Shown one piece after another: positions 31,433-62,045 of a stretch of 64,000 nucleotides of DNA. The stretch comes from a virus (lineage: Duplodnaviria > Heunggongvirae > Uroviricota > Caudoviricetes), in the IMG/VR virus record IMGVR_UViG_2684622670_000009, positions 20,476-84,475 of that record. One strand, 5' to 3'. Position 1 is the stretch's first letter; each line of letters opens with the position of its first letter. Both the position numbers and the translations under genes were made by a program. The notes under the pieces were generated by a model. The model had not been told where the DNA came from, did no database searches, and saw only the letters and a list, made by a program, of their open reading frames with translations.

Positions 31433-31706
31433 GTAACCCTTGAATATCAACCACAGAAAGCTCGTCTTTGTAGAAAAAGGCCAAGTTGTGGCCCCCCCTC
31501 GTTTGAGCGTATGAGCTGGGACCAATTTCGTTCTTCCAGACAAATGGCTTCAAATCCGTACGGCGAAGCATAAAAACGCGATTTGTTCCGCTCTGATTCC
31601 CAATGAGGCAAAAGCCTTCTTTCACCTTGATAGCCTGCAAGTTGTCGAGTTCACCGCTGGTTACACGGCTATCGAACTCCTTGCGGCTTATTAGCTCCAT
31701 CTGCAT
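31422..31706 (-). CDS. Hypothetical protein upstream of hrdC (uhr-like position)
   Basis: About 94 aa from internal ATG with GGAG Shine-Dalgarno; C1-operator-like site about 75 bp upstream. Confidence 0.4.
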
Positions 31707-31777
31707 CTGACGACTCCAAACAAATGCCCATTGAAGGGCGATGGCTGAATGGTACCGAAAACACGACATAAAAAAAA

Positions 31778-31795
31778 CAATATTTATTAGTGCAA
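31778..31795 (-). promoter_or_regulatory. C1 operator-like site (15/17)
   Basis: Reverse complement of aatatttattagtgcaat; upstream of the uhr-hrdC-dmt gene string. Confidence 0.4.
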
Positions 31796-31877
31796 TTTTA
31801 TAGTAAGTAAACGCCATACAGACCACAAATAACCTAAGTTAAAATAACGAAAATCAGAGCAAATCATTGGTGATGAC

Positions 31878-32162
31878 GTGGCAAGTATTGCAACAAAAGA
31901 CAGCATTTGTTCGGGGCACGGAGGATTCCCATCCAGGCCTCCTGTAGAGAGTGAACCACTACTTAAAGTCAACGGAGTCGAAGTGTTAGTTGATGGTAAG
32001 CAATATGCACAGCATACCGATGGAAACAGTACGCACGGTGGGCAAGCTATATCAACCAGGGCATGGTTTACCGTCAATGGTAAAGGGGTCGTATGCGTTG
32101 GTGACCCTGTTTCATGCGGTTCTACCGTAGCGTCAGGAGACGGCCTAGTTCAGGTAAGTTAG
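31878..32162 (+). CDS. Small Gly-rich protein, possibly PAAR-like
   Basis: 94 aa, GTG start; SICSGHGG and CVGDPVSCG motifs loosely resemble PAAR repeats. Confidence 0.3.
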   Translation: MASIATKDSICSGHGGFPSRPPVESEPLLKVNGVEVLVDGKQYAQHTDGNSTHGGQAISTRAWFTVNGKGVVCVGDPVSCGSTVASGDGLVQVS

Positions 32163-32170
32163 GAGATATC

Positions 32171-32959
32171 ATGCTGGAAAAAGACTACCAGTTATCCGCA
32201 TATAAAAAATTGGCCGCAGCCGGTGGGATGAAAACACCTGGCGCCATAACATCGGCACGAAACAGTGCTAACACGGCAAAACAGCTTGCAGAAGAATTGA
32301 TCGGATTAATTTTGGATACAATTGTCTATCCCGACACTATTACCAGCTATGTTTCAACGATCAGAACAACCACAACCGGCTTAACGAACATTGGAGAACT
32401 GGCAACTAAGCACGCGGACCTGTTGGCTGGTTATGCAGATCTGTCAATGCTGCTTCAACTCAATATTGGTTGGGATGTTTACTGCCGTGCTAATGAGCGA
32501 GAAGTATCAGAACTGCCGATCTCTATTGCCATTGGTGATGTGACTATTACTAAATCGCTTGAGGACGCTGTAAACGCGCTTAATACATCAAGTTTAGTCA
32601 CTGCTATGGGGGAGATTAACCAGACCCTTAACACTGGCTCAGGAAGCTCGTCAGGCTCTGGTTCAGGCGGCGGCACTGCCACTCCCCCACCAGCACTAAC
32701 AGAAGAGCAAATTGAATCTCTGAAAGTAGCAACTGAACAGTTTGGGGTTGTTTTCAACCAGACAACAGCGCCCACAACTGCGTTACAACAGCAGTATGAA
32801 CGAGCGAATGAAAGCGCCAACGTAGCCATAACTGCTTATAACCATGCTATCGGTACCGCGCTTGCGGAAGCATCAGCAAATAAGGCCAGCACAGCCAGCG
32901 CAGTCGCCGCTTTGGTTCCTGATTCTGTTCTTGATGAATTAAACAAAGCGGCACGGTAA
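32171..32959 (+). CDS. Hypothetical protein with Gly/Ser-rich linker
   Basis: 262 aa from ATG with AGGAG Shine-Dalgarno; GSGSSSGSGSGGG linker. Confidence 0.5.
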   Translation: MLEKDYQLSAYKKLAAAGGMKTPGAITSARNSANTAKQLAEELIGLILDTIVYPDTITSYVSTIRTTTTGLTNIGELATKHADLLAGYADLSMLLQLNIGWDVYCRANEREVSELPISIAIGDVTITKSLEDAVNALNTSSLVTAMGEINQTLNTGSGSSSGSGSGGGTATPPPALTEEQIESLKVATEQFGVVFNQTTAPTTALQQQYERANESANVAITAYNHAIGTALAEASANKASTASAVAALVPDSVLDELNKAAR

Positions 32960-32998
32960 CAAAGGACTTCATTGATAATTTTTCTTCAGGAGGAAGAC

Positions 32999-33421
32999 AT
33001 GTCATTCTTTTCTACGTTAAAAACAGCTTTGTCTTTGAAGGAGAAACTTGCTGCTACTGGTGTTCTTGTTCTGATTTGCGCACTTGTTGGTGCTGGGTTT
33101 GCATGGGAACGTCATCAGCTAAAGCAAGCCATGGAGAAAATTGGCAGTCTTGATCAGGCTGTTAAGGAACGTGATAAGTCAATAATGGATCTTAACCAGA
33201 CCATTGCGACGATGAACAAAGCAGAGCAACATTTTCACAGCCAGGAAGTGAAAAATGAATCAGAACAAGCCAAGTATGCTGACAGGCAAATGGAACGAAA
33301 AGCTGAAGTTCAGAAACAACTTGTTGCGGCGGGTAATGTTCGCCAGCGCATTCCTGCTGACACTCAGCGGTTGCTCCGGGAGTCGATCAGCGAATTTAAC
33401 GCCGACGCCGACAAAGATTAA
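32999..33421 (+). CDS. Putative i-spanin (Rz-like): N-terminal transmembrane helix plus coiled coil
   Basis: MSFFSTLK... with TM segment LAATGVLVLICALVGAGFAW; AGGAGG Shine-Dalgarno. Confidence 0.45.
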   Translation: MSFFSTLKTALSLKEKLAATGVLVLICALVGAGFAWERHQLKQAMEKIGSLDQAVKERDKSIMDLNQTIATMNKAEQHFHSQEVKNESEQAKYADRQMERKAEVQKQLVAAGNVRQRIPADTQRLLRESISEFNADADKD

Positions 33422-33587
33422 TCACCCTGCCCCCAAAAGTGCGTTTATGTGCAGGATGCCAGAGTTTAGCAGTGAATATTTTGATGATCTGCCAGCCTAT
33501 ATCCTCGATACAGAAACGATGTTGATGGGGATTAACAGGAAGAATCGCAACGTTAATGATTACAACCGCGCTATCAGCGGTAACTAA
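33336..33587 (+). CDS. Putative o-spanin (Rz1-like lipoprotein) overlapping the i-spanin in the +1 frame
   Basis: MFASAFLLTLSGCSGS lipobox; Pro-rich mature region; overlaps the 3' end of the Rz-like gene. Confidence 0.4.
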   Translation: MFASAFLLTLSGCSGSRSANLTPTPTKINHPAPKSAFMCRMPEFSSEYFDDLPAYILDTETMLMGINRKNRNVNDYNRAISGN

Positions 33588-33598
33588 AAGGGATTTTT

Positions 33599-33991
33599 AT
33601 GTCTGATAAAGTAACAGTAAAGCAAACTATCAACAAAGCGACTTCAATCTACAAAATTGAGCACATCACAGTTGGCAAGCCAGGATCTGAACAATACCGT
33701 CATGCTTTCGAGCTTGCCGATCAGCTTGGTTTAAAACACCCGGATTGCATCGAGCATGTATTTCCGACCTATGCTGATGAGCAATGTACTCATGTTCTTA
33801 CCGAAGAGGATTTTTTCAGCACTGAAGAACGAGAAGGCGTTGATCGCTGCATTGGTGTGATTTGTTCTTCGGTAAGTGATGAGTTATTCCCTAATGTGCC
33901 TGAATATGGTGGTATTGGATACCAATTCCTGTACGAGGGCGATGAGCTTAAATGCTATGAACATGGTCTTCTCATCGAAAGCGTAGAATAA
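33599..33991 (+). CDS. Hypothetical protein
   Basis: 130-aa ORF followed by a terminator. Confidence 0.5.
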   Translation: MSDKVTVKQTINKATSIYKIEHITVGKPGSEQYRHAFELADQLGLKHPDCIEHVFPTYADEQCTHVLTEEDFFSTEEREGVDRCIGVICSSVSDELFPNVPEYGGIGYQFLYEGDELKCYEHGLLIESVE

Positions 33992-34005
33992 TACAGCTTC
34001 CTTCC

Positions 34006-34030
34006 AACCGGCTTTGTTGGCCGGTTTATT
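34006..34030 (+). terminator. Rho-independent terminator
   Basis: Stem AACCGGC/GCCGGTT followed by a T-rich tract. Confidence 0.5.
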
Positions 34031-34039
34031 CAACTTATC

Positions 34040-34253
34040 CACAGCATAGATCCAATAAACAGATCCAAAAGAGAACCCTAGAAGATCCAAATAAGATCCC
34101 GGATCGCTGCAGGCCGCGCCATGTCTGGCCTGAAACGTGATCAACATTGACTATATGCGATTTTATGTTGACTGTACACGATTTATTGTTGACTACACGC
34201 GATTTTATGTTGACTATACGCGATATAAACATTGACTGTACGCGATTTTAAAG
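34040..34253 (+). repeat. Plasmid origin oriR / incC: GATC-containing heptamer repeats followed by five roughly 21-bp-spaced iterons
   Basis: Five GATC sites (34045-34110), then five TTGACTRYRYGCGATWT iterons starting at 34147, 34168, 34189, 34210, 34233 directly upstream of repA. Confidence 0.6.
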
Positions 34254-34326
34254 CCTGAATATTCACAGCTGTTGATAACAGCCATCCAAATTGACGTCAG
34301 GCCGCGCCACACATGGAGAAACCACG

Positions 34327-35211
34327 ATGCCGGAAGAAAGTAAAGGCTTCCTTAGCGTTGAAGAAGTTGCAGGAAATACAGGAGAAATCCACAGCCTGAA
34401 ACCCAATAACAACAGCACTATACAACCCATCGCTTTGTTGCGCTTAGGTGTGTTTGTGCCAACCTTAAAATCTACCAATGTGGCACTACGTCGCGGATCG
34501 TCAGTTACTACAAACACAACGAACGCAACCGAAGAACTATCAAGCCTCAAAATTGTTGAGCAGGAAGGCTATGAGGGAATTGAAATTCATGGTCCACGCC
34601 TGGATATGGATACTGATTTTAAGGTGTGGGTGGGCATAACCTCCGCGTTGTTTGACTATGCACCTGATGATGACGGTATAATTACCCTGCCATTCTCCGA
34701 GTTTGCCGATCGATGCGGCTATCCACGTAAGCGCCTTTCAAAGGCGTTCCGTAAAAGTATTGATGACTCTCTGACACGCATTCAGCAGACAGTTGTCAAA
34801 TTCCGCTTCCCGGCGGCAAAAGGTCATCTCAATAACATTAACGTCAACTTGTTGGCATATAGCAGCCTGAATACCGAGCTTGATGTTATCGAGATCCAGC
34901 CGCAGAAACAGCTATCTGAACTTTACTATGTTGACTATAAGCGAATCCTGAAGCTGAAGATGCTGGATAAGCTCGGGCGCAAAGAGACGGCCAAGGTACT
35001 GTATACATTCTTTGAGGCTCTACCTGCCAACCCAGCACCTGTCAGCATTGAGCGCCTTAGAGCAAGGCTTAACCTCAAATCATCCGTTAGCGTGCAAAAT
35101 AGCGTTATCAGAAAAGCCATGAAAGATTTGGAAGCTATTGAATATCTTAAATTTTCAGAGATAAAAAACGGCAGGAAAATCGGCTTCCAGATCCATAAGC
35201 GCAATCCATAA
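34327..35211 (+). CDS. repA: Iteron-binding replication initiator (RepA-like)
   Basis: About 294 aa from internal ATG (MPEESKGF...); flanked by iteron arrays in P1-type oriR-repA-incA order. Confidence 0.6.
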   Translation: MPEESKGFLSVEEVAGNTGEIHSLKPNNNSTIQPIALLRLGVFVPTLKSTNVALRRGSSVTTNTTNATEELSSLKIVEQEGYEGIEIHGPRLDMDTDFKVWVGITSALFDYAPDDDGIITLPFSEFADRCGYPRKRLSKAFRKSIDDSLTRIQQTVVKFRFPAAKGHLNNINVNLLAYSSLNTELDVIEIQPQKQLSELYYVDYKRILKLKMLDKLGRKETAKVLYTFFEALPANPAPVSIERLRARLNLKSSVSVQNSVIRKAMKDLEAIEYLKFSEIKNGRKIGFQIHKRNP

Positions 35212-35480
35212 TATTGACTATATGCGATAGCGAGAAGTTGACTATAGGCGACATTCGTTGACGCTGGTGGATTTTTGCTGGCGTCAATATTCTGCAAGTC
35301 GCTATTGAGATGGCTTTTAGGGTCATTTCATCGCGTATAGTCAACGTTTCTCCCGACAATATCTTACATAGTCGATCTTTGGTGGAGTTAAATCGACTAC
35401 AGTCAACTTTTGACTGTGGTCATATCGCGCATAGTCAACTATTCACATTAACCTTCGCGCATAGTCAACATTTGCGCGGT
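35211..35480. repeat. incA-like iteron array (about 8-9 iterons in both orientations)
   Basis: Repeated TTGACTATAKGCGA / CGCRTATAGTCAAC units downstream of repA. Confidence 0.55.
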
Positions 35481-35503
35481 TCTCATCAAGCAGTGGTATT
35501 GAT

Positions 35504-36313
35504 ATGCAAGAAGAGAAACAACACTACCTCTACGTTCTGGTGCCGGAGAACGGAGATACTTTTAAAATCGGCATTTCATGTGGTCCATTGGCACGGTTTA
35601 AAGGGCTACAAGTGAGTCCCGATATTGCGCTTTCACGAATCTATCGTGGTACGCGTTTGGCAATGGTTAATCTTGAGCGGGCTTTACACGCAACCTTTTT
35701 CCCCTGGAATGCGCCGTGGGAGAAAAGCGCCGGTGGCGGGCATACTGAATGGTTTACACGAGAGTGTCTTGATAAGGTTTTGGCTCATATCGAATATCTA
35801 AATGATATGTGGGGAGGGATTCTCGAGCTCATTAAGTCGAATGATTTACTTCAGCGTCCAGTAGATGCTGCTCGCTCTTTCGAAAAAGAGCTGGATGTTA
35901 CTTCTATCGTGACTTTCAAAGATGACGCAGGAATGAGGGATGTGGCTTATGTCTCCATATCTGGCTATGAACCGGACGCGATCCGCGCTCAATGTGAATT
36001 GCTGAAAGCAATGTTTATGCTTCGGACTAAATATCCCTGGGAGACAGGGCGGGTGTGCTTCCCTATGGAAGAGTTAACCGCCACCATTGATTCCCAGCTT
36101 TACCACGATAATCCAGAGAAGTTTTTTAGCCTTTTAGCCGGTAATGGGCTTAACTGTGTGTCCGGGCTGGGGCGAAGTAGAATCCAACATGCCTCGCTCT
36201 TCGGTCCCTTTTTTTACGATCGACACGGGTACTTTGAGGCTGAACTTCCGGCGCTTACGCGTGCTATAGATACTATCGATTTCGAACGATTATTCGCTGC
36301 TCTTAGCAAATAA
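35504..36313 (+). CDS. T5orf172 (GIY-YIG-like) domain protein
   Basis: 269 aa; HYLYVLVPENGDTFKIGIS ... GGHTEWF pattern typical of T5orf172 domains; lies between incA and parA. Confidence 0.5.
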   Translation: MQEEKQHYLYVLVPENGDTFKIGISCGPLARFKGLQVSPDIALSRIYRGTRLAMVNLERALHATFFPWNAPWEKSAGGGHTEWFTRECLDKVLAHIEYLNDMWGGILELIKSNDLLQRPVDAARSFEKELDVTSIVTFKDDAGMRDVAYVSISGYEPDAIRAQCELLKAMFMLRTKYPWETGRVCFPMEELTATIDSQLYHDNPEKFFSLLAGNGLNCVSGLGRSRIQHASLFGPFFYDRHGYFEAELPALTRAIDTIDFERLFAALSK

Positions 36314-36320
36314 CACTGAT

Positions 36321-36341
36321 GCCCCTGAACGGGGCTTTTTT
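36321..36341 (+). terminator. Rho-independent terminator
   Basis: GCCCC-TGAAC-GGGGC followed by T6. Confidence 0.6.
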
Positions 36342-36481
36342 GTGCCCTCCTTGTAACTATCAATCGTACAAAATGAACGAAACATGCAGAGAATGTTATG
36401 TACAAGCATCTACGCATACATTATTATTTTATGCAGCATTTTTAATTAAATTCAAAAATACAGCATAAAGGATGACTTTCG

Positions 36482-37678
36482 ATGAGTGATTCCAGCCAGC
36501 TTCACAAGGTTGCTCAAAGAGCAAACAGAATGCTCAATGTTCTGACTGAACAAGTACAGTTGCAAAAGGATGAGCTACACGCGAACGAGTTTTACCAGGT
36601 CTATGCGAAAGCGGCACTGGCAAAATTGCCTCTACTGACTCGAGCGAACGTTGACTATGCCGTAAGTGAAATGGAAGAAAAGGGTTATGTTTTCGATAAA
36701 CGCCCTGCTGGCTCTTCAATGAAATATGCGATGTCAATTCAGAACATCATTGATATATATGAACATCGCGGAGTGCCAAAATACCGGGATCGCTACAGCG
36801 AAGCGTATGTTATTTTCATCTCCAATCTTAAAGGCGGTGTGTCAAAAACTGTATCGACGGTTTCTCTGGCGCATGCAATGCGTGCCCACCCTCATCTTCT
36901 GATGGAAGATTTAAGGATTCTGGTTATTGACCTTGATCCGCAATCTTCAGCAACGATGTTTTTAAGCCATAAACACTCTATTGGTATCGTAAACGCAACA
37001 TCTGCACAGGCTATGTTGCAGAATGTAAGCCGTGAAGAGCTGTTAGAGGAGTTTATTGTTCCTTCTGTTGTACCTGGGGTTGACGTTATGCCTGCGTCGA
37101 TTGACGATGCCTTTATTGCATCCGATTGGAGAGAGCTGTGCAATGAGCATCTACCGGGTCAGAACATCCATGCTGTCCTGAAAGAAAATGTGATTGATAA
37201 GCTGAAGAGCGATTATGACTTTATCCTCGTTGATAGTGGTCCTCACCTTGACGCCTTCCTGAAAAATGCTTTGGCCTCGGCCAATATACTGTTTACACCT
37301 CTGCCGCCAGCAACTGTCGATTTCCACTCATCGCTTAAATACGTTGCCCGCCTTCCTGAGTTGGTGAAACTCATTTCGGATGAAGGCTGCGAATGCCAGC
37401 TTGCGACTAACATTGGTTTTATGTCCAAGTTGAGTAACAAGGCAGACCATAAGTATTGCCATAGCCTGGCGAAAGAAGTGTTCGGTGGGGATATGCTCGA
37501 TGTCGTCCTACCTCGCCTTGATGGTTTCGAACGCTGCGGCGAGTCCTTTGACACTGTTATTTCTGCTAATCCGGCAACGTATGTTGGTAGTGCTGACGCA
37601 CTGAAGAACGCGCGCATCGCCGCTGAAGATTTTGCAAAAGCAGTTTTTGACCGTATTGAATTTATCAGATCTAACTAA
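36482..37678 (+). CDS. parA: Partition ATPase ParA
   Basis: 398 aa; deviant Walker A KGGVSKT; same length as P1 ParA from memory. Confidence 0.9.
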   Translation: MSDSSQLHKVAQRANRMLNVLTEQVQLQKDELHANEFYQVYAKAALAKLPLLTRANVDYAVSEMEEKGYVFDKRPAGSSMKYAMSIQNIIDIYEHRGVPKYRDRYSEAYVIFISNLKGGVSKTVSTVSLAHAMRAHPHLLMEDLRILVIDLDPQSSATMFLSHKHSIGIVNATSAQAMLQNVSREELLEEFIVPSVVPGVDVMPASIDDAFIASDWRELCNEHLPGQNIHAVLKENVIDKLKSDYDFILVDSGPHLDAFLKNALASANILFTPLPPATVDFHSSLKYVARLPELVKLISDEGCECQLATNIGFMSKLSNKADHKYCHSLAKEVFGGDMLDVVLPRLDGFERCGESFDTVISANPATYVGSADALKNARIAAEDFAKAVFDRIEFIRSN

Positions 37679-37694
37679 GGAGTAAGAAAACGCC

Positions 37695-38696
37695 ATGTCA
37701 AAGAAAAACAGACCAACAATTGGGCGAACCCTTAATCCTTCAGTATTAAGCGCATTTGATAGTTCCTCTGCCTCTGGTGATCGGGTTGAGCAGGTATTCA
37801 AGCTATCAACTGGTCGCCAGGCTACATTCATTGAGGAGGTAATCCCTCCAAACCGGGTAGAAGGCGATACCTTTGTTGATCAGCATAACAACGGACGTGA
37901 TCAGGCAGCTCTTACACCAAAATCATTAAAAAGCATCAGAAGCACCATTAAGCATCAGCAATTTTACCCAGCAATAGGTGTTAGACGGGCTACAGGAAAA
38001 ATTGAAATTTTGGATGGTTCCCGGCGTCGAGCTTCTGCCATCTTAGAGAACGTAGGGTTGCGGGTTTTAGTCACGGACCAGGAGATCAGCGTCCAGGAAG
38101 CGCAAAATTTAGCGAAAGACGTTCAGACAGCATTGCAGCACAGCATTCGAGAAATAGGTCTGCGTTTGATGCGAATGAAAAATGATGGGATGAGTCAGAA
38201 GGATATTGCAGCCAAAGAAGGGCTATCTCAGGCGAAGGTCACGCGCGCTCTCCAGGCAGCGAGTGCTCCGGAAGAATTAGTCGCCCTTTTCCCTGTGCAG
38301 TCGGAATTAACCTTTTCGGACTACAAAACGCTTTGTGCTGTTGGCGACGAAATGGGGAACAAGAATTTAGAGTTTGATCAGCTTATTCAAAACATATCCG
38401 CGGAAATAAACGACATCTTATCCATTGAAGAAATGGCCGAAGATGAAGTTAAAAATAAAATCCTGCGCTTGATAACAAAGGAAGCCTCACTACTCACGGA
38501 TAAAGGTTCTAAAGATAAGTCCGTAGTTACTGAATTATGGAGATTTGAGGACAAGGATCGCTTTGCAAGGAAGCGCGTGAAAGGCCGTGCATTTTCTTAT
38601 GAGTTTAATCGACTTTCAAAAGAGCTACAGGAAGAACTCGACAGGATGATTGGGCATATCCTTAGAAAGAGCCTCGATAAAAAGCCGAAGCCTTAA
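37695..38696 (+). CDS. parB: Partition protein ParB
   Basis: 333 aa immediately downstream of parA and upstream of parS motifs. Confidence 0.85.
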   Translation: MSKKNRPTIGRTLNPSVLSAFDSSSASGDRVEQVFKLSTGRQATFIEEVIPPNRVEGDTFVDQHNNGRDQAALTPKSLKSIRSTIKHQQFYPAIGVRRATGKIEILDGSRRRASAILENVGLRVLVTDQEISVQEAQNLAKDVQTALQHSIREIGLRLMRMKNDGMSQKDIAAKEGLSQAKVTRALQAASAPEELVALFPVQSELTFSDYKTLCAVGDEMGNKNLEFDQLIQNISAEINDILSIEEMAEDEVKNKILRLITKEASLLTDKGSKDKSVVTELWRFEDKDRFARKRVKGRAFSYEFNRLSKELQEELDRMIGHILRKSLDKKPKP

Positions 38697-61209: not shown

Positions 61210-62045
61210 TGCAACGTTCCTGGTTTAATAACCGACTTACATCAGCTAAGCAAAAGTCATTGCTCTATAAATCATTGGCTGATTTGGTTCAGTCAATGAT
61301 AGACACCTTTGTTGACCCATGGTTGGAGCGAATTACCAACCGGAAGTCTATTTTCTCCATGAGCAAGGAGGATCTGGAGACCAGGACAAATGAACTTGGC
61401 CAGTTCTTTACTATCAGAACTTCGAACTCATCTTCCGTTCCGATGTTGTTACAACAGCGGCTTGATGAGATCCACTTTAAGGGAACTGAACGCCCTATAA
61501 ACCAGACAATTTACCGCGAATTTAACGGTATTTCTGTTTTATGGGATCCGATATATGCACCGGTGGACCTTGAGCGTCATCCCTACGGCACAGTTCTAAT
61601 ACCAGAAAGCACACTGGAGACTACCGGCGGCACATTCGGTGAGATGTTTCTGACTTCCAGAGGGATGATCAGTATTCCCATAAACGACCTGGCCCGGACA
61701 ATGGGAATTACTGGCACGATAGATCAGTCCGCAATTACAGAAGAAATTCTCAGAAAGTTTAATCAGTTCGTAAAGCCTCTACTGCCACTGCATATAGTGT
61801 TTGATGGGCTTACGCTCTATTTGTCGGTTGTTGTAAATGAACAGGCCGACATGATCACTTTGAACGAGATTTCTGATATCGAAAAAGCGTACTGCTGGTT
61901 TGAAACTTCGGATACAACTTCGCTTACTGGAGTTACGTCGATTAGCGCCCCGATCACCGCAACGCCGGGCGGCACTATTGTGAAAGCCACACCTACGTTT
62001 GATCGCACCCGTGCAGATGATTTGTTGCTGGATAGCGATGTCTGA
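61206..62045 (+). CDS. Putative baseplate/tail protein
   Basis: 279 aa; overlaps upstream stop. Confidence 0.45.
   Translation: MMQRSWFNNRLTSAKQKSLLYKSLADLVQSMIDTFVDPWLERITNRKSIFSMSKEDLETRTNELGQFFTIRTSNSSSVPMLLQQRLDEIHFKGTERPINQTIYREFNGISVLWDPIYAPVDLERHPYGTVLIPESTLETTGGTFGEMFLTSRGMISIPINDLARTMGITGTIDQSAITEEILRKFNQFVKPLLPLHIVFDGLTLYLSVVVNEQADMITLNEISDIEKAYCWFETSDTTSLTGVTSISAPITATPGGTIVKATPTFDRTRADDLLLDSDV

What the first reader, a model, noticed from the sequence alone, without database searches (positions are those of the whole stretch)
35504..36313. T5orf172-domain gene between the incA iterons and parA
The replicon (oriR, repA, incA) and the partition module (parA, parB, parS) are otherwise contiguous, but a 269-aa gene with a T5orf172/GIY-YIG-like N-terminal pattern and its own terminator sits between them. 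T5orf172 domains occur in nuclease-like accessory and defence-associated proteins.
Basis: partly seen in the sequence, partly recalled or inferred. Interest (0 to 1): 0.45.

Follow-up and report, generated by a model that had tools for sequence, protein, structure and literature searches.

The report
Nuclease gene riding a plasmid-replicon cassette
A real 269-aa gene with a GIY-YIG-type (T5orf172) nuclease domain lies between the replication and partition genes of this P1-like phage-plasmid; it is a dispensable passenger of an alternative replicon cassette that P1 itself lacks, it is already annotated in hundreds of plasmids, and its function is untested.

Summary
ORF 35504-36313 (+) encodes 269 aa. 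Its N-terminal domain passes Pfam's T5orf172 threshold, keeps every invariant residue of 136 relatives and models as a GIY-YIG fold. A terminator follows the gene.

The gene is not an insertion into P1's replicon. The window carries the p0111-type replicon cassette (34130-36379: iterons, repA', iterons, this gene) in place of P1's IncY cassette. The gene is linked to repA' in about 400 plasmids and occurs in 412 of 5426 complete E. coli genomes.

The whole family has four alleles (27-44% identical). All four lie between repA and parA of P1-like elements, next to three different RepA types. The cassette has been swapped repeatedly between near-identical backbones.

The gene is dispensable. pN/pS is 0.33 against 0.02 for repA, and 10 of 68 loci are inactivated, including three independent nonsense mutations.

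The C-terminal domain has no sequence relatives. Its moderate-confidence model gives only weak winged-helix matches, several to Rep initiators. No defence-system profile matches.

Best reading: a homing-type, site-specific nuclease acting in conflicts between P1-like elements. An Odn-like replicon-directed nuclease is the interesting rival. This is a new member of a known kind, of moderate interest.

The parts
34130..36379 (.). p0111-type replicon-specificity cassette that replaces P1's iterons, repA, incA and spacer (P1 locus L001:3507-4997)
   Evidence: blastn of the window against P1: homology (95.5%) ends at 34129 and resumes (98.2%) at 36380. The same boundaries are seen in an independent backbone pair, L003 versus L004.
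34143..34245 (+). five direct iterons (core TTGACTRYR, spacing 21-22 bp) upstream of repA; the origin-side iteron array
34327..35211 (+). repA' (p0111-type Rep3-family initiator, 294 aa counted from ATG 34327; the mechanical ORF begins at TTG 34291)
   Evidence: Pfam Rep3_C and Rep3_N. 84% identical to L003 RepA and 41% to P1 RepA. The RCS47 repA annotation is 885 bp.
35210..35473 (.). six downstream iterons (two direct at 35210-35251, four inverted at 35331-35473); the incA-equivalent array, ending 31 nt before the nuclease ATG
35504..36313 (+). T5orf172-domain gene, 269 aa (the finding)
   Evidence: (PHROG 2876, full length)
35504..35833 (+). N-terminal T5orf172 / GIY-YIG nuclease domain (aa 1-110), with residues Y10, K21, G23, R31, E58, H62, E82 (TEWF)
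35891..36310 (+). lineage-specific C-terminal domain (aa about 130-269), putatively a winged-helix DNA-binding domain (helices 188-214 plus a beta hairpin 216-231)
36321..36345 (+). intrinsic terminator (5-bp GC stem, 5-nt loop, T6) ending the repA'-nuclease unit
36399..36427 (+). Ppar promoter, shared with P1 (backbone, outside the cassette)
   Evidence: promoter-like site in the window. It is collinear with the annotated P1 Ppar at L001:5017-5045.
36482..38696 (+). parA (36482-37678) and parB (37695-38696), P1-type partition operon (context)
   Evidence: Pfam. 100% and 98% aa identity to P1 ParA and ParB.

Best explanation
The gene encodes a two-domain DNA endonuclease. The N-terminal domain is a catalytically intact T5orf172 (GIY-YIG superfamily) nuclease. 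The C-terminal domain is fast-evolving, specific to this lineage and probably binds DNA.

The gene is the non-essential, right-hand component of the p0111-type replicon-specificity cassette of P1-like phage-plasmids. It is most likely transcribed at a low level by read-through from the RepA-autoregulated repA promoter across the downstream iterons, ending at its own terminator.

The most likely mode of action is that of a free-standing, homing-type (selfish) site-specific nuclease. When two P1-like genomes meet in one cell, it cuts a site in the genome that lacks this cassette. Recombinational repair from the nuclease-carrying genome then copies the nuclease gene together with the linked iterons and repA'. 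Once the gene is fixed in a lineage it is free to decay.

Shown: the fold and motif, cassette membership, linkage to repA', repeated cassette exchange, dispensability and decay. Inferred: nuclease activity, DNA binding by the C-terminal domain, co-transcription with repA, and cleavage of rival alleles followed by gene conversion.
For: Nuclease identity:
- Pfam T5orf172 is above threshold in all four alleles.
- All invariant residues (K21, G23, R31, E58, E82) and near-invariant residues (Y10, S44, H62, G79, T81, F84) of 136 relatives are retained.
- The N-domain is modelled with confidence. It matches the GIY-YIG nuclease SLX1 and phage T5orf172 proteins, including CapR-homology and Hef-like homing endonucleases and ICP1 ORF88, which is Gp88/Odn.

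Homing-type behaviour of the family:
- About half of the putative homing endonuclease genes of phage ICP1 carry a T5orf172 domain, and such genes sit next to essential genes and at boundaries of genetic exchange (PMC10448857).
- A close N-domain relative, P0012, lies among HNH endonuclease genes in a phage.

Locus behaviour:
- The gene lies in an intergenic position between two conserved modules.
- It is present or absent between backbones that are 98% identical.
- The cassette boundary falls 63-84 bp after the stop codon in two independent backbones.
- In the 3.4-kb parA-to-gene-23 flank, the nearest neighbours of each of three IncY elements are p0111 elements (distance 0.0006-0.004). Replicon type therefore does not follow the backbone, which indicates repeated exchange.

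Dispensability and decay, as in a homing-endonuclease life cycle:
- pN/pS is 0.33, against 0.02 for repA and about 0 for parA.
- Three independent nonsense alleles (W68*, S112*, Q228*), one internal disruption and one frameshift give 10 inactivated loci out of 68.
- P1 itself has no trace of the gene, yet a P1-type RepA (83% identical) in L004 is followed by an allele of it.

Speed of divergence: between the window and L003, RepA is 84% identical, the nuclease N-domain 64% and the C-domain 32%.
Against: - The gene is never seen moving on its own. Every p0111 cassette has it, it occurs nowhere else, and no cassette with an empty site exists. Being at the boundary of the swap is partly trivial for any cassette-specific gene.
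- Nucleotide diversity shows no dip centred on the gene.
- Four alleles only 27-44% identical are retained at one syntenic position next to three RepA types. That looks like long-term selection for a function tied to the replicon rather than pure selfishness.
- No target site is known, and no nuclease assay exists.
- The C-domain model has only moderate confidence and rests on four sequences.
Confidence: 0.45

Rival explanations
1. A replicon-directed nuclease like ICP1 Odn. The C-terminal domain is a Rep-like winged-helix module that recognises iterons or origin DNA of competing P1-like replicons. The T5orf172 domain cuts them, eliminating the rival plasmid prophage or superinfecting genome rather than converting it.
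Confidence: 0.2
2. An anti-phage defence or exclusion gene carried as cargo. The nuclease degrades the DNA of unrelated infecting phages.
For: GIY-YIG/T5orf172 domains are nuclease modules. One N-domain relative, P0015, lies in a chromosomal island with Mrr_cat and WYL genes. Cargo genes of this kind are typically dispensable and fast-evolving, as this gene is.
Against: None of the 5027 PADLOC models matches. It is a single gene without a sensor or partner gene. The full-length family exists only at this locus in P1-like elements. It sits inside the replicon cassette.
Confidence: 0.12
3. A replication or partition accessory factor or regulator. The protein binds the downstream iterons or the Ppar region and tunes copy number, handcuffing or par expression, with or without cutting DNA.
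For: It lies between the incA-like iterons and Ppar, in the same orientation as repA and parA. Its start codon is 31 nt from the last iteron. Synteny is conserved over large divergence.
Against: Three independent nonsense alleles circulate, including one (Q228*) in a 103,445-bp contig, L038, the same length as the phage SJ46 record. P1's IncY replicon works without any such gene. pN/pS is about 15 times that of repA. The catalytic residues are conserved. The C-domain diverges to 32% identity between cassettes with identical iterons.
Confidence: 0.08
4. A relic with no present function: a formerly mobile nuclease gene now drifting towards loss.
For: 10 of 68 loci are inactivated and purifying selection is relaxed. 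The gene is absent from P1.
Against: pN/pS of 0.33 is well below 1 in both domains. 85% of loci are intact. All catalytic residues are kept in alleles only 27% identical. The window's own copy is intact.
Confidence: 0.1

Closest known systems
T5orf172-family putative homing endonucleases of phages (ICP1 gp53, gp121, gp130 and others; T5-like and Vibrio phages), Barth et al. 2023, PMC10448857
   Same: The same Pfam domain and motif set. The same plan of a nuclease domain at one end and a variable DNA-recognition region at the other. The same kind of location: an intergenic position beside essential genes, at the edge of a recombination tract. The same rapid turnover of the non-nuclease part.
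   Different: The phage enzymes mostly use CapR, DUF723 or DUF4397 zinc-finger DNA-binding repeats and occur in many copies per genome. This protein has a unique C-terminal domain without a zinc-finger match. It is single-copy and is fixed at one locus inside a plasmid replicon cassette of a temperate phage-plasmid.
ICP1 Odn (Gp88), origin-directed nuclease, Barth et al. 2021, PMC8263062
   Same: A T5orf172 nuclease domain (Foldseek hit to ICP1 ORF88 at E 1.5e-3) and an association with an iteron replicon. The replicon-specificity module (iterons plus the initiator's DNA-binding part) is swapped as a cassette in both systems.
   Different: In Odn the DNA-binding domain is N-terminal and 42% identical to the RepA_N domain of its target. 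Here the nuclease is N-terminal and the C-domain shows no sequence similarity to any RepA. Odn is carried by a lytic phage and acts against a satellite. This gene lies inside the replicon itself.
Free-standing GIY-YIG homing endonucleases of T4 (I-TevI, Seg proteins); from established knowledge
   Same: A GIY-YIG-type catalytic core linked to a separate DNA-binding domain. They are inherited by co-conversion of flanking markers and are optional between related genomes.
   Different: There is no detectable sequence match. These enzymes belong to a different subfamily, not T5orf172. Their DNA-binding modules are different. Homing has been demonstrated for them and not for this gene.
SLX1 structure-specific endonuclease (PDB 6seh, 7cq2, 7wme)
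   Different: SLX1 is a eukaryotic repair enzyme with a RING/PHD domain and an SLX4 partner. The similarity is in fold only (11-17% identity).

Membership tests
T5orf172 domain (Pfam PF10544), GIY-YIG superfamily | Match to the family profile above the curated threshold | tested here: met
   26.2 bits against a cut-off of 20, E 1.1e-5, aa 8-85. All four alleles match, best E 3.2e-6.
T5orf172 domain (Pfam PF10544), GIY-YIG superfamily | Conserved motif and catalytic residues (Tyr in strand 1, K-x-G in strand 2, Arg in helix 1, Glu/His in helix 2, and the Glu of the TEWF motif) | tested here: met
   K21, G23, R31, E58 and E82 are invariant, and Y10, H62, T81 and F84 are at least 90% conserved, in the 136-sequence alignment A6. 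The window protein has all of them.
T5orf172 domain (Pfam PF10544), GIY-YIG superfamily | GIY-YIG alpha/beta fold | tested here: met
T5orf172 domain (Pfam PF10544), GIY-YIG superfamily | Endonuclease activity | not testable with these tools
   This needs purified protein and mutants at E82 and R31.
Free-standing homing endonuclease gene | Nuclease domain joined to a separate sequence-specific DNA-binding domain | tested here: inconclusive
   The C-domain model has moderate confidence. Only weak winged-helix matches were found, and there is no sequence family.
Free-standing homing endonuclease gene | Presence or absence at one locus between otherwise homologous genomes | tested here: met
   P1 and IncY elements lack it while their flanks are 98% identical. 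Replicon type is intermixed across the flank phylogeny.
Free-standing homing endonuclease gene | The gene itself is the mobile unit: an empty-site allele differs only by the gene, or copies occur at other loci | tested here: not met
   The gene is always linked to repA'. No p0111 cassette lacks it and no copies occur in other contexts. The alternative allele differs by the whole 2.25-kb cassette.
Free-standing homing endonuclease gene | Cleavage of the allele without the gene, followed by gene conversion | not testable with these tools
   This needs in vitro cleavage mapping and genetic crosses.
Free-standing homing endonuclease gene | Degenerate copies in populations where the gene is fixed | tested here: met
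   W68*, S112* (5 loci), Q228* (2 loci), one internal disruption and one frameshift give 10 of 68 loci. pN/pS is 0.33.
Odn-like origin-directed nuclease | DNA-binding domain homologous to that of a replication initiator | tested here: inconclusive
   Sequence level, not met: hhalign probability 0.15% and z of 1.1 or less. Fold level: non-significant hits to RepE, pPS10 RepA WH1 and RctB.
Odn-like origin-directed nuclease | Iteron-dependent cleavage of a rival origin | not testable with these tools
Known anti-phage defence systems (PADLOC-DB v2) | Match to a defence-protein profile, or a defence-type gene neighbourhood | tested here: not met
   0 of 5027 models match at E up to 1. The neighbours are repA and parA.

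The most novel reading that the evidence does not exclude
The gene is a plasmid-borne counterpart of ICP1 Odn. It would be a T5orf172 nuclease guided by a diverged Rep-like winged-helix domain, carried by each replicon-specificity cassette of P1-like phage-plasmids to cut the iterons or origin of rival cassettes. That would be nuclease-based warfare between incompatibility types, and it would drive both the turnover of IncY, p0111 and other replicon types on otherwise identical backbones and the very fast divergence of the C-terminal domain.
Probability: 0.13. Interest if true: 0.75.

Novelty: new member of a known kind. Interest (0 to 1): 0.35.

Why it matters
P1-like phage-plasmids are common carriers of resistance genes in Enterobacteriaceae, and they come in two replicon types, IncY and p0111, at about equal frequency (PMC9603915). 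This gene is the only protein-coding difference besides repA between the two cassettes, and 7.6% of complete E. coli genomes carry it. Its function has never been tested. [quoted passage not shown]

If it is an active site-specific nuclease acting on rival P1-like genomes, it would give a mechanism for the repeated replicon swapping seen here on near-identical backbones. It would also extend the idea of nucleases at boundaries of genetic exchange from lytic phages to plasmid replicons.

If it does nothing measurable, it is an ordinary decaying selfish gene. The practical lesson would then be only that the p0111 cassette includes it.

Tried and rejected
- Defence-system membership: PADLOC gave no hit. 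NCBIfam gave no hit.
- More family members: the 5.8-billion-protein word search, exhaustive HMMER on 1.84 billion representatives, GTDB genomes, IMG/VR, metagenomes, and tblastn of PLSDB and phages. Only four full-length alleles exist, and all other hits cover the N-domain only.
- C-domain homology: an HMM of the C-domain against the 153 collected proteins found nothing outside the family. Pfam found nothing. PDB sequence searches found nothing. hhalign against a RepA profile gave probability 0.15%. Shuffled Smith-Waterman against five RepAs gave z of 1.1 or less.
- First AF2 run, with a two-sequence alignment, was unusable (mean pLDDT 49). The second run, with 136 sequences, gave a confident N-domain and only a moderate C-domain. 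The afdb50 fold library was unavailable.
- A sweep signature: sliding-window diversity over 40 loci is flat at about 0.01 from mid-repA through gene 23, with no minimum at the nuclease gene. This gives no support for recent co-conversion centred on the gene.
- A remnant of the gene in P1: tblastn of the four alleles against P1's incA-Ppar spacer found nothing. IncY plasmids with a P7-type par also lack the gene.
- A promoter of its own: the consensus scan found none in 35150-35503.
- A structured RNA in 33500-37000: no Rfam match.
- I do not count "the nuclease sits at the swap boundary" as strong evidence, because any cassette-specific gene must lie inside the non-homologous block.

Full report
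**1. The observation**

- Pfam's T5orf172 model (PF10544) matches aa 8-85 at 26.2 bits, above the curated cut-off of 20, with E 1.1e-5.
- PHROGs has a full-length family of unknown function (phrog_2876) and a weak match to an "endonuclease" family.
- A hairpin with a T-run follows the stop codon at 36321-36345.
- repA is flanked by iterons with the core TTGACTRYR. Five direct copies lie at 34143-34245. Two direct and four inverted copies lie at 35210-35473, and the last ends 31 nt before the ATG.
- parA and parB follow at 36482 and 37695.

**2. What the surrounding DNA is**

The window is a P1-like phage-plasmid.
- Against P1 (NC_005856) it is 95.5% identical up to 34129, which lies inside oriR just before the iterons. 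It is 98.2% identical again from 36380, which is 19 bp before the -35 box of Ppar. Nothing significant lies between.
- P1 has no gene between incA and Ppar, only a spacer of about 170 bp.
- The 2.25-kb block 34130-36379 is therefore an alternative replicon cassette, not an insertion into P1's replicon. It contains iterons, repA' (41% identical to P1 RepA), iterons, the T5orf172 gene and the terminator.
- This is the p0111 replicon type. The literature contrasts it with P1's IncY type and finds the two at about equal frequency. [quoted passage not shown]
- The same arrangement occurs in RCS47, SJ46, phi456 and JL22, where the gene is annotated "GIY-YIG nuclease family protein" or "T5orf172 domain-containing protein".

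**3. Distribution and linkage**

- In PLSDB, 401 records carry the gene at 95% identity or more.
- 404 records carry the cassette, 391 of them at 80% coverage or more. Of the six sub-80% records that were listed, most are cut at a record end and two hold only fragments.
- No p0111 cassette was found without the gene, and no copy of the gene was found elsewhere.
- About 375 records carry the IncY cassette without it.
- 412 of 5426 complete E. coli genomes have it. The median is one copy, with 414 places on plasmids and 7 on chromosomes.

**4. The family is tiny and always at this locus**

Several searches found only four full-length alleles: the word-indexed search of 5.8 billion proteins, an exhaustive HMMER search of 1.84 billion representatives, and scans of GTDB genomes, IMG/VR and metagenomes.
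- The alleles are the E. coli p0111 allele, P0004, P0009 (named by NCBI as from Salmonella enterica) and P0011 (faecal metagenome).
- All four lie between repA and parA of P1-like elements, in the same orientation.
- L003 and L004 share a backbone (ParA 100%, ParB 98%, major capsid 99% identical) but differ in cassette. L003 has a p0111-type RepA, 84% identical to the window's. L004 has a P1-type RepA, 83% identical to P1's. Their T5orf172 proteins are only 29% identical.
- Their non-homologous block runs from the first iteron to 63-84 bp after the nuclease stop codon, the same limits as for the window against P1.
- L005 has a third RepA type and a P7-type par, and again carries the gene.
- The gene therefore travels with the rep side, not the par side.
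- P1's own lineage lacks the gene, and no remnant is detectable.

**5. The protein**

N-terminal domain:
- An alignment of 136 relatives has K21, G23, R31, E58 and E82 invariant. Y10, S44, H62, G79, T81 and F84 are at least 90% conserved. The window protein keeps all of them.
- With that alignment AF2 gives pLDDT of about 95 for aa 1-110.
- Foldseek against viral models finds phage T5orf172 proteins, CapR-homology and Hef-like homing endonucleases and ICP1 ORF88, which is Odn.

C-terminal domain (aa about 130-269):
- It aligns among the four alleles but has no sequence relatives elsewhere.
- Its model has moderate confidence (pLDDT 50-80). It contains a helix-helix-helix-hairpin unit at aa 188-231 that resembles a winged helix.
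- After SLX1, the top Foldseek PDB hits are iteron-binding initiators (RctB, pPS10 RepA WH1, MSBI1.176 WH1, RepE54), but at E 0.35 or worse.
- There is no sequence similarity to any of five RepAs.
- I treat "DNA-binding winged helix" as likely and "Rep-like" as a lead only.

**6. Selection and decay**

- Across 43 IMG/VR loci, pN/pS is 0.33 for the gene (0.30 for the N-domain, 0.35 for the C-domain). It is 0.02 for repA, about 0 for parA and 0.15 for upfA.
- Three independent nonsense mutations circulate: S112* in five loci, Q228* in a 103,445-bp contig (the length of the SJ46 record) and in one metagenome contig, and W68* in one locus. There is also one internal disruption and one frameshift. 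Together, 10 of 68 comparable loci are inactivated.
- The window's copy is intact.
- Between the window and L003, RepA is 84% identical, the nuclease N-domain 64% and the C-domain 32%, although the iterons are the same.
- The gene is therefore dispensable for replication, is under weak purifying selection, and diverges fastest in its presumed recognition domain.

**7. Cassette exchange**

- In the 3.4-kb right flank (parA to gene 23), the nearest neighbours of each of three IncY elements are p0111 elements, at distance 0.0006-0.004.
- The mean distances are 0.020 within IncY and 0.015 between types.
- Replicon type is not partitioned by backbone, so cassettes have been exchanged repeatedly.
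- Diversity does not dip at the nuclease gene, so this exchange cannot be tied to the gene by that test.

**8. Expression**

- No sigma-70-like promoter was found between repA and the gene, and no terminator lies between them.
- The Shine-Dalgarno sequence is weak, as read directly from the sequence.
- I infer low-level read-through from the repA promoter across the downstream iterons, ending at the terminator, which also insulates Ppar.

**9. Interpretation**

The best-supported reading (0.45) is a homing-type, site-specific T5orf172 endonuclease. It is an optional, selfish component of the replicon-specificity cassette and acts when P1-like genomes meet.
- For: the domain family and its known behaviour in phages (PMC10448857), the two-domain plan, the presence/absence polymorphism, the repeated cassette exchange and the decay pattern.
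- Against: the gene has never been seen moving alone, and its long retention at one locus across three RepA types suggests a function tied to the replicon.

The main rival (0.2) is an Odn-like nuclease directed against rival replicons (PMC8263062). It is attractive because of the linkage and the weak Rep-like fold hits, but it fails the sequence-homology test.

The remaining readings are less likely:
- Defence (0.12) has no positive support.
- A replication or partition regulator (0.08) is contradicted by the nonsense alleles and by P1 working without the gene.
- A functionless relic is given 0.1.

**10. Novelty**

The gene is already annotated in hundreds of records and has been noted in print as an unknown gene. 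It is a new member of a known kind: a T5orf172 nuclease with a new recognition domain.

What this analysis adds:
- It belongs to the cassette.
- It is strictly linked to repA'.
- The family consists of four alleles at one locus.
- It is decaying.
- The cassette has been swapped repeatedly.

Interest is moderate (0.35). It would be much higher if the Odn-like reading were shown.

Noticed in passing
window 35310-35615 (+); L003:8001-8123: ORFs that run through the inverted iterons translate the repeats into recurring peptides (AHSQ-/AYSQH-like). The public gene call for P0004 (311 aa) begins 41 codons too early for this reason. The true start aligns with M1 of the window protein.
   Followed up: partly
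window 34291-35211: The mechanical repA ORF starts at TTG 34291 (306 aa). Homologues and the RCS47 annotation (885 bp) indicate ATG 34327 as the start, giving 294 aa.
   Followed up: partly
L047:4294-6058 (IMGVR_UViG_2645727563_000002): In this locus nt 295-523 of the nuclease gene are replaced by about 1.76 kb of other DNA, possibly an insertion sequence with a deletion. The inserted DNA was not identified.
   Followed up: no
window 35504-36313 (aa 41, 46, 109): The window's allele has three substitutions absent from all 42 full-length IMG/VR alleles: I41 where the others have F, I46 where they have V or G, and L109 where they have R. Its closest plasmid matches are from Escherichia albertii, at 99.3-99.5% identity.
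   Followed up: no
L051 (NZ_MT158480.1, p17-AB00432): An IncY repA with a P7-type parAB (401 and 321 aa) sits between an IS91-family transposase and IS26. PLSDB types the plasmid as conjugative (MOBC, MPF_T). The P1-type rep-par module therefore appears to have been captured outside a phage-plasmid.
   Followed up: no
E. coli genome search: Seven of the 421 places holding the gene are on chromosomes rather than plasmids. These may be integrated P1-like elements or assembly joins.
   Followed up: no
window about 31500-33600 (upfC, upfB, ppfA, mlp) and the junction near 33579: Among p0111-type loci, diversity to the left of upfA is 4 to 10 times higher (pi 0.04-0.16) than across the rep-par-capsid region (about 0.01). 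At least one locus carries about 1 kb of extra DNA just before upfA. L052 has an extra Gp49-family gene in the same interval.
   Followed up: no
L001:4827-4997 (P1 NC_005856 about 61,316-61,486): P1's 171-bp spacer between incA and Ppar matches neither the window nor the L004 cassette. L004 has a P1-type RepA but carries a T5orf172 allele at this position. The origin of the spacer is unknown.
   Followed up: partly
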